Part shown: positions 1-8,266 of the stretch, one piece after another | How positions within the stretch are numbered: position 1 is the first letter of the stretch | Layout: each line of letters opens with the position of its first letter | NCBI GenBank assembly: GCA_905178155.1 | Contig: CAJINV010000097.1 | Location: 1-8,266, forward strand | Source: Amoebophrya sp. A120 | Taxonomy: Eukaryota; Protista; Dinoflagellata | Length of the DNA: 8,266 nucleotides | Direction: 5' to 3' | Notes under the pieces: model-generated | Told to the model about the DNA's origin: nothing | What the model saw: only the letters and a program-made list of their open reading frames with translations | The model's database searches: none | Position numbers and translations under genes: made by a program

Positions 1-385
1 GTAGAAGATTGAAGAAAAAAATTGTGTCGTGTGCTCTAGAAGGTGCTTGGCGTGAGAAAAGACCAGAGTCGAAGATCATTCTGTCAAGAAGTAGAGAAAT
101 CGAGGATCCCAACATTGGCAGACGAAGCGTCGAAGCAGGCGATAATAGTTTTGAATCAGATGATCAGATCTGCCTCTGCGAGGATCCTGTTGAGCTGCCT
201 TCTGATTTTCATTTTTATCATGTTCTATTGAAGTCTGCGCATCATGATTACAGGAAGAAGCGAGTTTCGTAGGAAAAAGACGACACGGCCTTGTATTAAA
301 TGACTTCGTTAGCCGCGACAACAGCACAAGCCTGTGAGTATTAGCATTAGGCAGGGACACGATTTTTTTTTCTCGTTGCAAGGAC

Positions 386-1780
386 ATGAACATATGCGAA
401 ACAATACAAGAACGTACAAACTTTAAGCAAAAAGCGACTTCGTCAAACGAGATGATGAAACAACAAATGCAATCGAGAGGACAAGACCTTCTCTTCCGGC
501 AAGATGGCCGGCTCCCAACCGAGTTGCGGCCCCCGATCATCAACCGGTCGAAAACCGGGTCTTGCACCTACAAACTGGGCGGCACTTTGGTTGTCGCGAA
601 ATGTTTTGGGCCAAAGGAGAAATCAAGATTCGCCTCGCACGGTACAAGCTCCGCGCAGAACTGTCTCTTACCGGCGAAATACACGAGCTCGACTACGGTC
701 AAGGTGCTTTCATCGTCGCACGCAGCAGGATCGGGTTCTTCAAATGAGCAGAGTTCTTTGACAAATTCGACGAACTGCTCCCTGAAACTGAATTTCGAAA
801 TCACAAAATCGGCTGTAGGCTCAAGCGAAGGAGCACTCGCACAGCGGAACAAGTTCCAGGAGTATGCGCAATGGCTGTCCATGGTGTTTTCGAAAGTGGT
901 GGTCGGTGTCCTAGGCGAGAGCAAGAGCTGCGCGGGAGCATCTGCATCTACCGGAGCAGGAAGTGCAGGCGGCGCTGGAATATCGGCGGGCGGTGGAAGT
1001 AGAAGTAACGCGTCTACTGCTGGTTCTTCTTCCCATGCGGTCCAGCTGCTGAACAACGGGAACAGCAATCTGCTGAACCTGGACATTTCCCTGCACGTTT
1101 TCGAATTTGACGGGAGTTTGCTCCCCGCGTGCATCAACGCAACTTCGGTGGCGCTCGCGGACTTGCAGACGATCGAAATAAAAGAGCTGGTCGCTGGTGT
1201 AAATTTGGGATTAGTTTCCGAAAGGGACAATTTACTGGTGCGCACCGATTTCTGCGACAAGAGGATAGTCCTCAGTAGTGCTAGCAGGGGGAATAGTTCT
1301 ACTACTTCCGCAACAGCTGCAAAGAGGAGGAAACTCAACGACGACACAATCTTGAATGACAGCGAGGAACAAGAAGTACAAGATGCGGAGGAGGAGGAGG
1401 AAGAGACAGAGGACCAAGATGAAAACTCTACTTCCAACTCTGACAGTCTCGTCAAAAATAGACCGGGGCAATCGACAAGTACAAGTTCGAATTTGTCATG
1501 CGCAGCAGCAGCAGCAGCCGGAAAAGCTACGACTACTGGAGGTCTTGTCACCGTGGTTGATATGACAGAGGAGGAGGAATCTTGGAACCAGTCCGTGACC
1601 ACCGTGGCGACTAATTTGAAAGACGAAATTCTGCTTCTACACTGCGGCCGGGTCAGGGAGGAGAAGCTGCTGCGGCAGTTTGTCGAGCTCGGCCAGGAGG
1701 GGTGTGGGAAAATTCGGGCGGTCATGCGAGAGGCATTATTGAATGAGGAGGTGGGGCAGGAAGATGTTGTTGAGGAGTAA
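386..1780 (+). CDS. RRP41: Exosome complex RNase PH-like core subunit, most similar to RRP41/EXOSC4; intronless, with long low-complexity insertions
   Basis: 464-aa ORF with RNase PH signatures in the expected order: RQDGRLPTELRP, GSCTYKLGGTLVVAKCFGPKE, LDISLHVFEFDGSLLPACINATSVALAD, VVDMTEEEE and a C-terminal helix GCGKIRAVMREALL. RRP41 versus RRP46/MTR3 was judged by eye. The true start could be the ATG at 452. Confidence 0.85.
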   Translation: MNICETIQERTNFKQKATSSNEMMKQQMQSRGQDLLFRQDGRLPTELRPPIINRSKTGSCTYKLGGTLVVAKCFGPKEKSRFASHGTSSAQNCLLPAKYTSSTTVKVLSSSHAAGSGSSNEQSSLTNSTNCSLKLNFEITKSAVGSSEGALAQRNKFQEYAQWLSMVFSKVVVGVLGESKSCAGASASTGAGSAGGAGISAGGGSRSNASTAGSSSHAVQLLNNGNSNLLNLDISLHVFEFDGSLLPACINATSVALADLQTIEIKELVAGVNLGLVSERDNLLVRTDFCDKRIVLSSASRGNSSTTSATAAKRRKLNDDTILNDSEEQEVQDAEEEEEETEDQDENSTSNSDSLVKNRPGQSTSTSSNLSCAAAAAAGKATTTGGLVTVVDMTEEEESWNQSVTTVATNLKDEILLLHCGRVREEKLLRQFVELGQEGCGKIRAVMREALLNEEVGQEDVVEE

Positions 1781-3250
1781 ATTCAGTTTTACACTGATGG
1801 ACGTTTACACTGCGTACTATCTTCTGGGTGCCATTTTAACACTCGCGTCGAAGCGACAACTTTAGTACCACCTGCGCGAATGTAGCATTCTTGTTGCCCC
1901 GGTGATCTCCTGCAAAGATTGAAGCGCTAGTGCAGCTGCTGCTGTGTCTACTTCAAATTCATTGAATTGCGACCTGTAGTCCGCGAAGATCTTCATAGAT
2001 AATGTTCACAGCAAGCTGTGCTCAAATCGGAATCACTCAACAACCTGAAGTGTTGCTTATGGGACCACTGTGGCAAGTGTCGCTTGGTCGTGCTGTGCAC
2101 GAACTTGTGCTGGAAATGACGAGCAGGAGAACTGCTGGTGTTCTACTACGTTGGTACTACAACTTGCTCCACCGAGTACGTTCAGTTTCTAGAAAACGAC
2201 CAGGACCATCCGCTCGTGCGAAGAAGTCCAAGACCTGGAATTATTGCAATTGGACTATCGTCGTGCGTCGCTAGCTACTTGTTGCGTCTGCAGTTGCAGT
2301 CGAGATGTGTAGAAATAGGAATTTCAAGACGTAGAAGTAGAAGCACTACTGGGCAGGAGAAAGCGAAGCAAACGAAAGATGATCAGATCAGCAACTTGTA
2401 GAACGGTAGGAGCTCGTAAAGAAAAAGAACGCAAAAGAATCTGGAGCATGACAACTGCAAGCGTCTACTGCGTCTGAGCGAGTAAGTAAGTAGAGGACCT
2501 GCATTGAAAAAACAGCTGTTTTTGATTCTAAGTACTAGGCTACACCTTCACCTACACCCCGCGTGCGAGAAGTACCATGATCTTCCGAAAACAAGAACTT
2601 CTAGCGATCTGTACTACAGCCAGCATTTGGCGAACTTGTAATAAGGAACTCATGTTGCAGTCGAATTTTTATAAAAAAATATGGCTTTGAATTTATCATG
2701 AGCGGACTGCGACTAAAATTTTTTTTTGGGTCCTCTTTGTTGTGCTTTTGTCTACCGAGGAATCCTCGCGAGGACTGCAAGAACATTTATCGATCTGACT
2801 TGCGCGATTTATGCATGGAGTGTTGAAGTTTTAGTCATGATGCACTTTTAGTTTTACCGACCACACGGCCGCGCATTGTTTGTGCAAGCAGGGGTGCGAT
2901 GAACTAGGACAAACCCTAACCCTTTCAACAACAAACGCCGGCGCACTTTTCAAAAGTTCCCGTTCACCTGATGATCGAATGTTATTGTCCACAGTTGTAG
3001 TCAAATCAAGTATTGAAATTTCGAGCCACTTTTGTATAAACACAATGTACAACTTCGCTAATAATATCACTAAAGCTGTAGACGAAACATCAACAAGAGC
3101 TCGGATTTAGCAGATTGACAAAATGTAGTAGAAAAATTCAGTTTACTACCAACAAATTTTATAGTTACACTCAGTCTTGGTCGTTTCTTTTGTGAAACGG
3201 AAAATGAAGAGAAACTGGTACATCAGCAAAAAATTGTAACTCTCTGCCGC

Positions 3251-3268
3251 CTGATTACCATCTCGCAG
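3251..3268 (+). promoter_or_regulatory. Possible canonical 3' splice or trans-splice acceptor upstream of the ATG at 3278
   Basis: CTGAT (branch-like), then pyrimidine-rich TACCATCTCG, then CAG ending 10 nt before the ATG. A short motif that could occur by chance. Confidence 0.25.
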
Positions 3269-3277
3269 CCATCGAAG

Positions 3278-6200
3278 ATGGCCCGTGGCCGCAGCGACAG
3301 TCGAGGGCGAAGCGGTGACCAAAATCAGCGACATATCCTGTGTAAAAACGTGTCCATAGAGTCCTCACGATGGTGAATATTATGACAGTGAACTACAACT
3401 CCCCCGCCTCCCCCTCATTCGTATGGCATGAACAGCAACACACGCAACGGCAGATATGTGGCTTCCGCATGACAAATCTGTACACGGATGGTAGTGCTGT
3501 AGTTTGATAAGGTTTCAAAATTTGGCATGCAGATAGTGCCTAAATAAGGCAAGATATGGATTTGGTATTTCTGTTTTTCATTTACAAATGAGGGCGGGGG
3601 GACCAGTTGTGCAGCACTCTCATAATGGGAATTTTGCATACACAAATAACCAACAAGGTTTGGCTGATGTTCTTGCGCGTTTGCGGATTTGCATGACAAA
3701 GCTGGGCCGATGGAGACGTTTTTGCACCACATGATACGACAAACCAGACGACACCGCGACAACAGCCGAACCCGGAAAAATATCGCGTGTAAGAGCATTT
3801 TTGCACAACAACTCGTAATAATTGCAGTTTATGCATGCGAAAGCTGGTTGCATAGACAATTTAGCATGGAAAATTGCATTTGTCATGCTGACCAAATTTG
3901 TAAATGCAATTACTACTTCTACGTAGCAGTACGATGCATATTTTCCACTTCATAAGAAATAACCGGGGCCGAGACCGCAGGCGAGACACGAGCCGGTCGC
4001 GAAGCGGCGGGCGGCACCAAAACAAGAGAAATAACAGAGACCAGCAACAGCAGAGCAACAACCGGTCGCGCTCTCCGTCGCCACCGCGGACGCCGCGCGC
4101 CCCGCCGACGGATTTACAGCAGTATGAAAAGGACCAGGAGAAGAAGGGGTGGCTGACCTGGTATCAAAAGGAGAAATCCCCCCTCCCCATATCAAAACGG
4201 AAATTTGTGATGCTGATTTGTGGTCACAAATCCGAGCTGTCTTGCTGGAGAGCACTGCAGGCCCAGACCAAGCGCGAGTAGAGAGGTTTTGGCCTAGGCA
4301 CTTAGCATGATAAACATCCGCGCTGTAGGCCCAACAGCATGACAAACCACCTGCATCATGCGGCGGAGCCTGTGGAGTTGCCTTCTTGCAAGACAGGCAC
4401 GATTTGTGGCCACAAATCAGCATGACAAATTTCCAAAAGTATACCGTTTCAGTATGGGGAGGGGGATTTTTCCTCTCAATACCTGGTTCGGCAGGAATAC
4501 GCGCGACCGGGAGCGGAATCGAATAAAGCCGGTATCAAATGTAAAAGTGCCTGGGTCTGGAAAGTTGGAACTTGTGATGCTATCTTTGGACTCTAAAAAA
4601 AATTGCATTGCATGACCAGCAAGAGGAACCACATTTGTGCTACGCGAGGAGGGCATTTGTCATGCGGAAATGGCATCAGGGAGCTTTCCAAAAATCTGTG
4701 ATGCTGGGTCATGCATTACAAGCAGCATCGGTCGTGCCAGACAAGCATGACAAGCCTTCCACTCTTCCAGACCCAGACATTTTTACATTTGATAGCCGGA
4801 GTGGCAATACCACGAGGAGACGGAGCTGTTCTATTTCATCCCGAAAAACCTCTACTTCAAGCTCGAGCCGGTCAACGACAAGCAAATTGCGACCGCGAAA
4901 CTCCACTTGAAACACGGGGGCGGGGGTATGGTCAGCGCGACAAAGTCCGTGCAGTGGAAGATTTTGCGGCCCGACGAAAATTTGGAAGACTGGGGCGACG
5001 AGAAAATGATCAAGTTGCAGAAAGCGGAAGAGATGCGCAACGCGCTGAAGACCGCGGAGTTTCACTCGTTCGACGAACGAAATGTGATGTCGGCCGCAGC
5101 CAGCACCAGCAGCAATATCCAACAAGTAGGTCTAGGTGCCCATACCGGAACTTCAACTTCGCAACACGCTGGAGCCAGCTCGTCTACCACCGCGGGGGGC
5201 GGTGCGCTATCAACTGTAAAAGTGTCTGGGTCTGGAAGATTCTGACACTTGTCATGCACGTTTTGCATGAGCCCTGACGTCTGTGATGCATGCCCTAGCA
5301 TCACAGACTTTTTGAGAGCTCCTTGATGCCTATTCCGCATGACAAATGCCCTCTCCGCGTAGCAAAAATTGCATTCCCTTTGCTGCTCATGCAATACAGA
5401 TTTTTTTGGAATCCAAATTCAGCATCACAAGTTGCATTCTTCCAGACCCAGACATTTTTACATTTGATATGCGCAAAGTCGGAGCAATTTGCGGTCCAAC
5501 AGCTTCGGTCCAGAGGATAACAACAGCAACTCCAAGATGATTCCAGATCCCTTTACAAAAATATGCCGGCAAGACACCGGAAACAGCGAAAAGAACAACG
5601 ACGGCGGGAATAACAATGTCACGAAAAACACCTCGAAACATAACCTCGGCGAGCATGGGTTAGCGACCAGTGCGCCAAGCGACAATCAAATGTTGGCCTC
5701 CTCCAAAAGCGGCAACCACCAACACCAACCCGACAGCATGTCCACGACTGCCTCCACCTCGACGTCAGCCTCCGGCGTGAAGTATGAAGAGGGGATCGTG
5801 CTGCAGTGGCACGAAGACCGGGGGTTCGGTATCAAAATGAAAAATCCCCTCTCCCCATATCGAACAGGAAAGTTGTGATGCTGGATTTGCGTACACAAAT
5901 CGGATTTGTCTTGCTGGAGAGGACTGCAGGCACATCTCACGCCCGAGTACAGAGGTTTTGGCCTAGGCGCTTAGCATGAGAAACGTCTGCGCTGTATGCC
6001 CAACAGCATCGCAAACCGCCTGCATAATACGGCGAAGCCTGTGGAATTGCCTTCTTGCAAGACAGACATGATTTGTGGTCGCAAATCAGCATTGCAAATC
6101 TTCTGCGACATACCTTTTCGATATGGGGAGGGGGGATTTTTCCCCGCGATATTCGGCTTCATTTCCCACTCTACCATGACCCCCGCCACCCCCACCTCCC

Positions 6201-8030
6201 CGGCGTCGCAGCAAACCCAGACGCTGTTCGTGTATCGCAAGAAAAAACTGTTTCACTGTGAACCTGTGATGCAGAGAACGAAACACCAACGCGTTTGTCT
6301 TGCTACACCTGCAACACAATGGATTTTTAGGCGTGTTTTCCATTGGAAAACGCGCATCACAGATTTTCTGTGTCATGTGTAGCAAATTTGTGATGCAGAT
6401 CTAGCAAAACCGTCAACAGTGAAACAGTTTTTTCCTGGGATATCGTGCACCGGAGAAATATTGTAGGAAGCACGTCGCAGCGCCCCATCAACTTGCCGGT
6501 GAACATCAAGGTTATTTTCACAATCGGAGAAGATAGCTCGAGTACAACGCAAGCGGCAAAAGACAGCTCGACAGCAAGTGGAGGTAACACCGCGGCTTCA
6601 GGAGCTGGTTTAAATAAGGACGATAAATCACTGGTGGCGCTGCAGGTCCAGATGATCGACCCGAAGACAAATAAACCAGCCTTGGTGCATATGAACAGCA
6701 GAAGTATCCTACTCGTATACTAATGCATTACAAATTTCCTCAGCATGGGGAATAAAATTTGTGATGCGGATCTACATTGAGAAAAAGATTTGTATATGCG
6801 TGACTGCAATACGAGTGCGATATCGTTTTGCACAGGATAGTGCACTCCGCGGACTACCATGCGAAAATCGAGCACAACCGGTATCGTCAGGAAAAATCCG
6901 CCCTCCCCATATCGGACTGGAAGTTTGTGATGCTGGATTTCCGTACACAAAGCAGTTTGTGTTGCTAGAATGGCAAGAGCCGCAGTTGCGGCCTTAATTG
7001 CAGGCATATATTGTGATGCTGTTTCCCACTTCCAGTTGCCTCCTGTCATGCGGAACATGCAAAAAGGCCTTCTCACGTCAGCCAGCACGACAGTCCGCAT
7101 CTTTTGTCTTCTAGCATGGCAGCATGATTCGCGGTCACAAATCAGCATCAGAAATTTCTAGCTTGAGTATGGGGTTCGGGGTTTTTCCGTTTGATAGCCG
7201 GCTGCGCATGCACGTCACGCTGGAGTCCCTGCAGTTGAGGTCCTGGTGCGAGTCCTGGCCCGGGAAGAAGCAGCACCTGCAGGACCGGTTATCAAATGCA
7301 AATATGTCTGGGTCTGGAAGGATGCAACTTGTAATGCTGTCTGCGGATTCTAAAAATACCTGTGTTGCATGAGCAGCAAAAGGAGTCAGTTCTTGGCACG
7401 CGGAGAGGGCATTTCTCATGCGTAATCAGCATCAAGTAGCTCTCAAAAAATCAGTGATGCTAGCACCAGCATCACAGACCTCATGGGTGAAGCAACATGG
7501 GCATGACAAGCCCCGACGCTTCCAGGCCCAGACATATTTGCATTTGATACCGGTTCTGCCTGAACCAGGCTTTGGAGGACATCGGCATGTTTTTCGGCGT
7601 TTTCGACGGACACGGTGGGGTGCAGGTGGCGGATTTGGTTTCCGATCGGCTGTTATCAAATGCAAAGATGTCTGGGTCTGGAACAGTGGTTGAACTTGTG
7701 ATGCGTGTCTTGCATTCCTGGAAAATCTGTGTTGCATGAGCAGCAAAAGAGGAGCTTGCTTTGTCATGCAAAAACGCAATTTGTGATGCGTGGTAGGCAT
7801 CAGCAGGCGCCTCTAAAAACTTGTCATGCCTGGCTGCCATTGCAAGCGCTTCAATCATGCTCAATTTAGCATCACAGATTTCCAGACTCAGACATTTTTG
7901 CATTTGATAGCTGTGGAAGCACCTTCTGTCGCACTACAAACAACGCACCGTGCTAGCGGCGTCCCGCGACGAGAAGTTGCTGCAGAGCCACATCGCAGCC
8001 TACTTGCAGTGCGACGCCGAAATCTGCGAA
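3278..8030 (+). CDS. Spliced multidomain protein, 3' partial: RS-rich region + OCRE-like repeat + cold-shock domain + PP2C/PPM phosphatase
   Basis: Exons, keeping the left repeat copy: 3278-3333, 3742-3780, 3960-4161, 4487-4532, 4800-5207, 5475-5829, 6157-6232, 6448-6689, 6845-6881, 7202-7289, 7555-7653, 7915-8030. Total 1764 nt = 588 codons with no stop. Translation: MARGRSDSRGRSGDQNQRQTRRHRDNSRTRKNNRGRD...KKGWLTWFGRNTRDRERNRIKPEWQYHEETELFYFIPKNLYF...EGIVLQWHEDRGFGFISH...QTLFVHRRNIVG...SWPGKKQHLQDRFCLNQALEDIGMFFGVFDGHGGVQVADLVSDRLWKHLL...AAYLQCDAEICE. Junctions can slide within the 5-bp repeats. Confidence 0.88.
3334..3736. mobile_element. Introner A (403 bp, contains a nested element)
   Basis: Direct repeat CGACA at 3329-3333 and 3737-3741. 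TIRs: TATCCTGTGTAAAAACGTGTCCAT versus right-end reverse complement TATCATGTGGTGCAAAAACGTCTCCAT. Confidence 0.85.
3381..3624. mobile_element. Nested TIR element inside introner A (244 bp)
   Basis: Ends are TATGACAGTG..ACAACT..CCCTCATTCGTA versus reverse complement TATGAGAGTG..ACAACT..CCCTCATTTGTA, with TAT...ATA termini. No intact 5-bp direct repeat (AATAT vs ATGGG). Confidence 0.6.
3781..3954. mobile_element. Introner B (174 bp, degenerate TIR)
   Basis: TAT...ATA ends. Repeats AAAAA (3776-3780) and AGAAA (3955-3959) differ by one base. Removal restores the frame. Contains TTGTCATGC. Confidence 0.7.
4162..4481 (+). mobile_element. Introner C (320 bp, family 1; strand is relative)
   Basis: Direct repeat CCTGG at 4157-4161 and 4482-4486. 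Subterminal IR AAATCCCCCCTCCCCATA / TATGGGGAGGGGGATTT. Colinear with element F. Confidence 0.92.
4533..4794 (+). mobile_element. Introner D (262 bp, family 2; strand is relative)
   Basis: Direct repeat GCCGG at 4528-4532 and 4795-4799. TIR of about 30 bp: TATCAAATGTAAAAGTGCCTGGGTCTGGAA / TTCCAGACCCAGACATTTTTACATTTGATA. Confidence 0.95.
5208..5469 (-). mobile_element. Introner E (262 bp, family 2, inverted relative to D/J/K)
   Basis: Direct repeat TGCGC at 5203-5207 and 5470-5474. Same TIR as D. Its reverse complement aligns with D along the whole length. Confidence 0.95.
5830..6151 (+). mobile_element. Introner F (322 bp, family 1)
   Basis: Direct repeat TTCGG at 5825-5829 and 6152-6156. 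Interrupts the CSD RNP1 motif GFG|FI. Interior closely similar to C, e.g. AGAGGTTTTGGCCTAGGC-CTTAGCATGA. Confidence 0.95.
6233..6442. mobile_element. Introner G (210 bp, family 3)
   Basis: Direct repeat TCGTG at 6228-6232 and 6443-6447. 27-bp TIR TATCGCAAGAAAAAACTGTTTCACTGT versus TATCCCAGGAAAAAACTGTTTCACTGT (25/27). Interrupts RNP2 LFV|H. Confidence 0.95.
6690..6839. mobile_element. Introner H (150 bp, imperfect TIR; one end resembles the outer end of A)
   Basis: Direct repeat GTGCA at 6685-6689 and 6840-6844. TAT...ATA ends. Inner IR ACTCGTAT/ATACGAGT. The right end read inward, TATCCTGTGCAAAACG, resembles the left end of A. Confidence 0.85.
6882..7196 (+). mobile_element. Introner I (315 bp, diverged family 1)
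   Basis: Repeats ACCGG (6877-6881) and GCCGG (7197-7201) differ by one base. The end GAAAAATCCGCCCTCCCCATATC matches C/F. Removal restores the frame. Confidence 0.88.
7290..7549 (+). mobile_element. Introner J (260 bp, family 2)
   Basis: Direct repeat CCGGT at 7285-7289 and 7550-7554. TIR TATCAAATGCAAATATGTCTGGGTCTGGAAG. Interrupts PP2C motif 1 QDR|F. Confidence 0.95.
7654..7909 (+). mobile_element. Introner K (256 bp, diverged family 2)
   Basis: Direct repeat GCTGT at 7649-7653 and 7910-7914. TIR TATCAAATGCAAAGATGTCTGGGTCTGGAA / TTCCAGACTCAGACATTTTTGCATTTGATA. Confidence 0.93.
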
Positions 8031-8059
8031 GTAAACTATTGCTGTCACTGTCACATTAC

Positions 8060-8172
8060 TAAGCCGTGCAAAAGTAGTATCTTGATGAGTAGAAAGGAGT
8101 AGATTTGTCATGCGGTATTGCAATTCCAATTCCTACGTAGTTCGTTGTCCGATATCACTTTTGCCCAGGATA
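8060..8172. mobile_element. Degenerate introner-like remnant, probably inside a 12th intron
   Basis: TAAGCCGTGCAAAAGTAGTATC versus right-end reverse complement TATCCTGGGCAAAAGTGATATC (16/22). Resembles the end of H and contains TTGTCATGC. No direct repeat. Confidence 0.45.
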
Positions 8173-8266
8173 TCCGGTCCCGAAGTTGCTTTCGCGCAAC
8201 ACAGATCGGCGATTTCTTTTCCCGGGCGGTATGGACTTTCTACGCCGCGCCCTGCGGGAGCCAGGG

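What the first reader, a model, noticed from the sequence alone, without database searches (positions are those of the whole stretch)
3278..8030. Gene split by 11 transposon-like non-canonical introns (TAT...ATA, TIRs, 5-bp direct repeats), none GT-AG
Seen: 11 inserts make up 2989 of 4753 bp. Removing each with one repeat copy yields 588 uninterrupted codons and rebuilds conserved motifs exactly at the junctions (GFG|FI, LFV|H, QDR|F). Six removals are not multiples of 3, so retention would shift the frame. Sliding the junction through each repeat never gives GT-AG or GC-AG. Established: TIR plus target duplication is the mark of non-autonomous DNA transposons, and IR/DR-bounded non-canonical introners are reported in Amoebophrya genomes (from recall), where I know of no resolved removal mechanism. 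Inference: the gene is functional and the elements are removed precisely, either by unconventional splicing or by DNA-level excision.
Basis: partly seen in the sequence, partly recalled or inferred. Interest (0 to 1): 0.92.

Follow-up and report, generated by a model that had tools for sequence, protein, structure and literature searches.

The report
Transposon introns removed without splice signals
Eleven hairpin-shaped, transposon-like inserts split one gene of a marine parasite of algae and are all missing, to the base, from an assembled sequence that is likely its messenger RNA; this intron type is already published, and what is added here is the likely cut position, one base before and four bases after the hairpin.

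Summary
There are 11 TAT...ATA inserts with 5-bp repeats (2,989 bp). Removing them gives 588 open codons, and no precise removal reads GT-AG. One 1,853-nt contig of a probable RNA run shows all 11 joints at the predicted sizes.

It is not new. The joined protein equals a public Amoebophrya sp. A120 gene model (588 of 588 residues), and the inserts match the A120 introner elements of Farhat et al. 2021. The scan also noted similar introns in other genomes.

Added here, from 147 related loci:
- The repeat is exactly 5 bp in 217 of 287 elements.
- The main family lies in both orientations (22 vs 26).
- GT-AG-like junctions are not enriched (9 of 160, 8.4 expected).
- In-frame GT..AG pairs at two window inserts are not used.
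- Six imperfect repeats allow only one fixed cut, N-TAT...ATA-NNNN, leaving T at +2 as the only canonical base.

Removal is likely at RNA level and hairpin-guided. A U1-less spliceosome is slightly favoured over an endonuclease-ligase route. DNA excision is unlikely but was not tested on reads.

The parts
3278..8030 (+). First 12 coding exons of a gene that continues beyond the window (public model GSA120T00026197001.1, weak PP2C and cold-shock-domain similarity). Exons at the inferred register: 3278-3332, 3741-3779, 3959-4160, 4486-4531, 4799-5206, 5474-5828, 6156-6231, 6447-6688, 6844-6880, 7201-7288, 7554-7652, 7914-8030
3334..3736 (.). Element 1 (403 bp), repeat CGACA; removed length 408; inferred intron 3333-3740, ends AT..AC
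3781..3954 (.). Element 2 (174 bp), imperfect repeat AAAAA/AGAAA, weakest hairpin; removed length 179; left-copy base kept at repeat position 2; inferred intron 3780-3958
4162..4481 (.). Element 3 (320 bp, family B with 6 and 9), repeat CCTGG; removed 325; inferred intron 4161-4485
4533..4794 (.). Element 4 (262 bp, family A with 5, 10, 11), repeat GCCGG; removed 267; an in-frame GT..AG pair (4532-4795, 264 bp) exists and is not the joint seen
5208..5469 (.). Element 5 (262 bp, family A, opposite orientation to 4 and 10, 80-81% identical to them as reverse complement), repeat TGCGC; removed 267
5830..6151 (.). Element 6 (322 bp, family B, 83% identical to 3), repeat TTCGG; removed 327; splits the cold-shock-like GFGF motif
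6233..6442 (.). Element 7 (210 bp), repeat TCGTG; removed 215
6690..6839 (.). Element 8 (150 bp), repeat GTGCA; removed 155
6882..7196 (.). Element 9 (315 bp, family B), imperfect repeat ACCGG/GCCGG; removed 320; left-copy base kept at position 1; in-frame GT..AG pair (6881-7197, 317 bp) not used
7290..7549 (.). Element 10 (260 bp, family A), repeat CCGGT; removed 265
7654..7909 (.). Element 11 (256 bp, family A), repeat GCTGT; removed 261
8031..8266 (+). 5' part of a 12th intron with an ordinary GT donor; its 3' end is likely beyond the window; holds a decayed element-8-like right end at 8101-8172
   Evidence: (contig leaves at 8031 with 29 loose letters; no depth at 8117-8266)

Best explanation
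The 11 inserts are Amoebophrya A120-type introner elements, likely non-autonomous DNA transposons that duplicated 5 bp on insertion, and they are likely removed from the pre-mRNA by a hairpin-guided ruler mechanism, most probably a modified spliceosome. Shown: the anatomy, multi-copy families, a fixed 5-bp repeat, and removal of element plus exactly 5 nt in an assembled contig. Inferred: that the contig is mRNA; that the terminal inverted repeats pair in the transcript; that the cuts fall 1 nt before the stem and 4 nt after it (1+4 = the 5-bp duplication, so the old coding sequence is restored at any site and in either orientation). Untested: the machine. I favour a spliceosome in which the stem replaces U1 in bringing the ends together, the element's TAT supplies U+2/A+3 of a donor with a free first base, and the acceptor is set by distance, not by AG. 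Confidence is about 0.9 for RNA-level precise removal, 0.7 for the fixed 1+4 register and 0.5 for the spliceosome.
For: All 11 joints at the predicted lengths in one 1,853-nt contig, which also leaves at the GT donor 8031; zero depth in bins inside elements 1, 6, 9 and in intron 12. Word shares of 0.42-0.43 in X3-X6 fit exons only (0.38-0.44), not element-free DNA (ceiling 0.60). Exact 5-bp repeat in 217 of 287 elements defined by their inverted repeats alone, 4 of 5 in 47 more. Orientation-free: 22 same, 26 opposite, 7 unclear. Removed lengths mod 3 are 56/50/54. Register: left base kept at repeat positions 1, 2 (inserts 9, 2; L023:3305-3560) and 4 (L023:1778-2081, Lys in P0003, P0004, P0005, P0007); right base kept at position 5 (L071:4467-4675, L071:5197-5469 against P0002). 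TAT at 382 of 396 ends found without asking for it. Farhat Table S4: all 9 listed A120 classes begin NT, all 9 listed A25 classes begin TT. U1 undetected while U2, U4, U5, U6 are present in A120. The review PMC11282704 gives Fritillaria as a precedent for a spliceosome adapted to such introns.
Against: Nothing directional supports a spliceosome. 5' and 3' end logos do not differ at any of 18 positions (n=189; lowest p 0.10). G at +1 (48 of 160) and AG at the end (15 of 160) are not enriched. +1 and -1 do not covary (p=0.52). The branch-like yTnAT is as common mirrored at the 5' end (91) as at the 3' end (87). The candidate branch A is changed in 2 of the 6 non-TAT ends whose direction could be taken from a neighbour. 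The predicted 20-30 bp stem would hide both sites. The register rests on one locus for position 4 and two loci in one gene for position 5, read from gene models of a slightly different assembly. Table S4 may reflect aligner preference. X3 is RNA only by guess and inference and may underlie the public model, so the two are not independent. Raw RNA runs X9-X11 did not cover the gene (5, 2, 0 reads laid).
Confidence: 0.55

Rival explanations
1. A second, non-spliceosomal system: an endonuclease measures from the stem, cuts 1 nt before and 4 nt after it, and an RNA ligase joins the exons, releasing a linear or circular intron, as suggested for euglenid nonconventional introns.
For: Complete symmetry of the two ends, orientation independence, no G+1, AG or branch signal; in-frame GT..AG pairs ignored at inserts 4 and 9; Euglena introns use a paired motif plus fixed spacers and leave as circles (PMC12501133 abstract and discussion; PMC11282704).
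Against: The inferred donor reads N-U-A-U, and +2 T holds in both strains although their inverted repeats differ, which such an enzyme would not need; the loss of U1 points to a changed spliceosome; no candidate enzyme was looked for here.
Confidence: 0.3
2. Precise excision from DNA (element plus one repeat) before transcription, in the manner of ciliate internal eliminated sequences.
For: Transposon anatomy, symmetric ends and orientation independence fit a DNA enzyme; element plus one repeat is the product of a perfect reversal of insertion.
Against: Runs X1 and X2 hold 0.83 and 0.77 of the window's words, above the 0.60 ceiling for element-free DNA (they may be the window's own source). 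The joined contig also lacks a GT intron. The base kept at imperfect repeats depends on the direction of transcription (left at positions 1, 2 and 4, right at position 5). From general knowledge, the parasite has no separate germline nucleus, so excision would be inherited and the elements lost.
Confidence: 0.05
3. The joints are reverse-transcriptase template switches across strong hairpins flanked by direct repeats, and the gene is dead or unspliced.
For: Hairpin plus short direct repeat is the known substrate of this artefact (PMC13149111 passage; PMC2923612 seen in the listing only).
Against: Every insert has an in-frame stop, yet the joined frame is open for 588 codons. No retained form covers elements 1, 6 or 9. 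The weakly paired insert 2 is removed too. The GT intron is skipped in the same contig. Elements of this type also sit in conserved genes (L023 with hydratase and dehydrogenase domains, L013 SNF2-type).
Confidence: 0.03

Closest known systems
Introner elements among the non-canonical introns of Amoebophrya sp. A120 (Farhat et al. 2021, PMC7789003)
   Same: Same organism and gene model; TAT + 7 nt + AAA inverted-repeat motif; 5-bp direct repeats; about 240 nt; non-GT-AG borders; strain-specific families; mixed with canonical introns in one gene.
   Different: No difference in kind. The paper leaves the border position unknown (Fig. 3 legend) and reports no clear dinucleotide signature; here the cut is placed at 1 nt before and 4 nt after the inverted repeats.
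Euglenid nonconventional introns (Nomura et al. 2025, PMC12501133; review PMC11282704)
   Same: Paired terminal motif, fixed spacers to both borders, repeats like target duplications, probable MITE origin, coexistence with GT-AG introns, unknown machine.
   Different: The Euglena code is N3CDG...CHG-N5-6 with a purine next; here N-TAT...ATA-N4 with 20-30 bp stems. Circular products are reported in Euglena, untested here.
MITE-derived non-canonical introns of Fritillaria borealis (through review PMC11282704)
   Same: TIR and TSD, transposon origin, host machinery adapted to them.
   Different: Preferred borders AG-AC/AG-AT and removal by the spliceosome are reported there; here the borders are free except +2.
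TIR/TSD introners of Aureococcus, Symbiodinium, Chrysochromulina, Florenciella (Gozashti et al. 2022, PMC9860276)
   Same: Non-autonomous DNA transposons whose splice borders lie partly in the target duplication, so the mRNA length is unchanged.
   Different: Those recruit ordinary splice sites from element or target; here precise removal can be read as GT-AG in only 9 of 160 cases, as chance predicts.

Membership tests
Amoebophrya A120 introner elements | Borders other than GT-AG, supported by transcripts | tested here: met
   0 of 11 read GT-AG at any precise register; 11 of 11 joints in the X3 contig, RNA by inference; same joints in public model P0001
Amoebophrya A120 introner elements | Terminal inverted repeats of 8-20 nt or more that can pair | tested here: met
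   10 of 11 with 20 or more expected end-to-end pairs; insert 2 only 4.7
Amoebophrya A120 introner elements | 3-5 nt direct repeat at the borders | tested here: met
   5 bp; 9 perfect, 2 with 4 of 5
Amoebophrya A120 introner elements | End motif TAT + 7 nt + at least AAA | tested here: met
   18 of 22 ends (motif)
Amoebophrya A120 introner elements | Repeated families | tested here: met
   BLAST hits for all 11 in 147 loci, 68-93% identity among the best hits; only 1 and 2 partial hits for inserts 1 and 2; loci were fetched with a family-A pattern, so that family is over-counted
Non-autonomous TIR DNA transposons (MITEs) | Fixed-length target-site duplication of variable sequence | tested here: met
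   5 bp in 80 of 94 family-A elements and 217 of 287 overall, no strong base preference
Non-autonomous TIR DNA transposons (MITEs) | No coding capacity | tested here: met
   150-403 bp, stops in the host frame; longer family-A copies of 457-972 bp have stop-free stretches of at most 118 codons
Non-autonomous TIR DNA transposons (MITEs) | A cognate autonomous element with the same ends | tested here: inconclusive
   None in 415 kb of loci; no genome held; PMC12130899 describes an A120 TIR family with integrase-like ORFs, not compared here
Non-autonomous TIR DNA transposons (MITEs) | Empty orthologous site in DNA | not tested
   No relative of the window gene other than its own model was found
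U2-type spliceosomal intron | GT/GC donor and AG acceptor | tested here: not met
   At the inferred register 5 of 11 start GT, 0 of 11 end AG; no enrichment in 160 others
U2-type spliceosomal intron | Branch site near the 3' end | tested here: inconclusive
   yTnAT at 87 of 189 3' ends but mirrored at 91 5' ends
U2-type spliceosomal intron | Lariat intermediate, need for U2/U6 | not testable with these tools
   No raw reads covered the gene
Euglenid nonconventional intron | CDG at +4 to +6 with CHG 5-6 nt before the 3' border | tested here: not met
   +4 is T in all 11 at the inferred register (code)
Euglenid nonconventional intron | Release as full-length circular RNA | not testable with these tools
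   Needs total or RNase R-treated RNA
Known structured RNA families (self-splicing introns and others) | Match to an Rfam model | tested here: not met
   One chance hit (E=0.34, 23 bits against a cut-off of 83) in the window
DNA-eliminated sequences (ciliate IES type) | Absence from the transcribed genome's DNA | not tested

The most novel reading that the evidence does not exclude
A120 runs a second mRNA-splicing system beside the ordinary spliceosome, on the same transcript: it ignores junction sequence, measures from an RNA stem (cut 1 nt before, 4 nt after) and is matched to its transposase's 5-bp duplication, so that every insertion, in either orientation, is silent. Tens of thousands of introns would then be removed without spliceosome chemistry.
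Probability: 0.3. Interest if true: 0.9.

Novelty: already known. Interest (0 to 1): 0.45.

Why it matters
The class is published, but how these introns are removed is still open in everything I read. A fixed register turns a border reported as unknown into a rule (N-TAT...ATA-NNNN). The rule says where to look for lariat, circle or cyclic-phosphate ends, would correct border annotation across this genome, and explains why the transposons can enter exons anywhere without harm. Either outcome matters: a spliceosome that needs neither G+1, AG nor U1, or a genome-wide splicing system without a spliceosome. This gene offers 11 such introns, three families, both orientations, two unused GT..AG pairs and one ordinary GT intron in 5 kb, so it is a compact test substrate.

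Tried and rejected
No whole genome is held. No holder on record as RNA was listed. Raw RNA runs X9-X11 gave 5, 2 and 0 laid reads, those laid at element ends, so they are no test. The family-A end pattern had no match in viral contigs.

An apparent bias of repeat mismatches to positions 1-2 (9 of 9) vanished in the larger set (16/8/4/10/9). The low count at position 3 (4 of 47, p=0.03; 1 of 29 oriented, p=0.013) is one of five positions looked at and is not used. The symmetric cut N-element-N (+3 nt) was rejected: 0 of 14 in two other genes and not seen at inserts 4 and 9.

Of 20 imperfect repeats that change a residue (36 rows) I tested 6, and 3 were uninformative: L069 (my recalled likeness to RNA polymerase I found no support), L028 (alignment ends before the junction) and L013 (P0008 reads into the element; homologues have neither residue). 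L071:1804-2065 and 3074-3279 are synonymous.

No autonomous element was found among six long candidates. L051:3001-4031 is likely two elements joined by a chance repeat match. No branch-site asymmetry and no +1/-1 covariation. Roy et al. 2023 is not held.

Full report
What is there. A scan for TAT...ATA pairs with complementary ends gave 10 of the 11 inserts directly; the 11th (3781-3954) was placed by eye and checked. Element plus one 5-bp repeat sums to 2,989 bp. The rest is 588 stop-free codons, six removals are not multiples of three, and no precise register reads GT-AG or GC-AG. All 11 would stop translation if kept. Repeats are perfect at 9 inserts and 4 of 5 at inserts 2 and 9. Inserts 4, 5, 10 and 11 form one family (70-81% in the better orientation), 3, 6 and 9 another (67-83%), against a shuffle baseline of 52%. 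Insert 5 lies opposite to 4 and 10. Folding predicts end-to-end stems of 20-29 pairs in 10 of 11. Rfam gave nothing real.

Removal is seen. Of 11 runs listed, four were laid. Run X3, RNA by the tool's guess, has one 1,853-nt contig with 11 joints of 408, 179, 325, 267, 267, 327, 215, 155, 320, 265 and 261 bases, exactly element plus five. The contig then leaves the window at 8031, where the DNA reads GT, so the gene has a 12th, ordinary-looking intron and continues. Depth is zero in bins inside inserts 1, 6 and 9 and at 8117-8266. The word share of X3-X6 (0.42-0.43) fits exons only (0.38-0.44), whereas X1 and X2 (0.83, 0.77) exceed the 0.60 ceiling for element-free DNA; X1 and X2 may be the window's own source. 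The raw RNA runs X9-X11 did not cover the gene.

Identity. One exon found a single relative, 100% identical: an Amoebophrya sp. A120 model of 597 residues. It equals the joined frame at 588 of 588 residues when the left repeat is kept, then reads 9 codons into intron 12. The 11 joints are therefore already in public annotation. The protein's function is weakly indicated: PP2C E=0.052 and cold-shock domain E=0.17, both below cut-off.

Farhat et al. 2021 (PMC7789003; I read the abstract, passages, sections 10 and 16 in full, and supplement legends and Table S4 rows; figures not seen) describe A120 introners with inverted repeats starting TAT + 7 nt + AAA and 3-5 nt direct repeats, and count 29,850 repeated introns. 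They did not detect U1 and mark the border position as unknown. The motif fits 18 of 22 ends here.

Wider sample. With ends defined by the inverted repeat alone, the flanking repeat is exactly 5 bp in 80 of 94 family-A elements and 217 of 287 overall, 4 of 5 in 47 more. Host direction was inferred with a self-trained codon model for 195 of 309 elements; neighbours agreed in 114 of 118 pairs. Family A lies 22 times one way and 26 the other, with 7 unclear. Removed lengths are even across frames (56/50/54). A precise removal can be read GT-AG in 9 of 160 cases against 8.4 expected, and G-element-G sites number 17 against 16.9. So insertion sites were not filtered for ordinary splice signals. In the window, inserts 4 and 9 offer an in-frame GT..AG pair (264 and 317 bases) and the contig uses 267 and 320. 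In two other genes, 12 of 14 elements fit precise removal in the public models; one of the other two lies outside the coding part and one did not match.

Where the cut is. A perfect repeat hides the cut; an imperfect one shows which copy the mRNA keeps. The contig keeps the left base at position 1 (insert 9) and position 2 (insert 2). At L023:3305-3560 the model keeps the left base at position 1. At L023:1778-2081 only the left base at position 4 gives the lysine found in the A120 model, an A25 orthologue, a transcriptome protein and a fourth relative. At L071:4467-4675 and 5197-5469 the A120 model has the residue given by the right base at position 5. One fixed register fits all six: the intron starts one base before TAT and ends four bases after ATA.

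The limits are real: one locus for position 4, two loci of one gene for position 5, models from a slightly different assembly, and three further tests uninformative. In support, all nine predominant A120 border classes in Farhat's Table S4 begin with NT and all nine A25 classes with TT, although aligner preference could contribute. I found no statement of this register in what I read (searches). Supplementary figures S19-S25 are images I could not see, and Roy et al. 2023 is not held; either may show it.

How it likely works. A transposase inserts the element with a 5-bp duplication (inferred; none found in 415 kb; passages of PMC12130899 report an A120 TIR family with integrase-like ORFs). 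In the transcript the ends pair (predicted). A machine cuts at fixed distances from the stem, one plus four, which equals the duplication and restores the exon. At this register the donor reads N-U-A-U, like the ordinary GUA- donor without its G (consensus recalled), and TAT holds at 382 of 396 ends found without asking for it. With U1 missing and U2-U6 present, a modified spliceosome is my first choice (about 0.5).

Against it, the two ends are statistically alike, and G+1, AG, a +1/-1 coupling and a branch A all fail to show. An endonuclease-ligase route (0.3) fits the symmetry. It has a parallel in Euglena, where a paired motif with fixed spacers was defined by knock-ins (PMC12501133: abstract, introduction and discussion read) and the introns leave as circles (PMC11282704, section 6 read in full). 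DNA excision (0.05) and template switching (0.03; PMC13149111 passage) fit poorly. I also read passages of PMC9860276 and PMC11453091.

Verdict. Three earlier scan notes report like introns in other genomes (unchecked). The value lies in the unsolved mechanism and in the register proposed here, which a genome-wide count of imperfect repeats could confirm or refute quickly.

Noticed in passing
window 8031-8057: The public model P0001 reads 9 codons into intron 12 and is marked partial; the X3 contig splices at 8031 and goes on with sequence not in the window, so the model is likely cut short.
   Followed up: partly
window 8101-8172: A decayed right end resembling element 8, with the TAT-N7-AAA motif on the minus strand, lies inside the GT intron and has no matching 5-bp repeat.
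   Followed up: partly
window 380-1780 (+): An uninterrupted RNase PH-family (exosome-type) reading frame with no element, next to a gene with 11 (Pfam RNase_PH E=1.8e-9).
   Followed up: partly
elements in the window and loci: The motif TGTSATGC recurs about 30-50 nt inside both ends of all families (30 of 33 window copies lie in elements); a likely protein-binding site shared across families.
   Followed up: partly
window 4190-4443, 5858-6123, 3381-3624: Elements 3, 6 and 1 hold a second, inner TAT...ATA inverted pair without direct repeats, as if the ends were doubled.
   Followed up: no
L023:1778-2081 and L023:3001-3264: At the inferred register the second element reads GT..AG by chance of its target; the first has an AAG-GT donor but its right repeat has lost the AG, in a conserved gene. 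Some 'canonical' introns with repeats in this genome may be such chance cases.
   Followed up: partly
L055:3001-3972: A 972-bp family-A element with a perfect repeat and no long ORF follows an exon that looks like the RNA polymerase II large subunit (likeness recalled, not searched).
   Followed up: no
window about 5417-5470 and 7338-7525: Contigs of X3 and a few X9 reads carry family-A ends joined to other flanks: other copies present in unspliced RNA or in DNA carried over.
   Followed up: no
window 2911-2923: A short AAACCCTAACCCT stretch upstream of the gene resembles a telomere-type repeat (likeness recalled).
   Followed up: no
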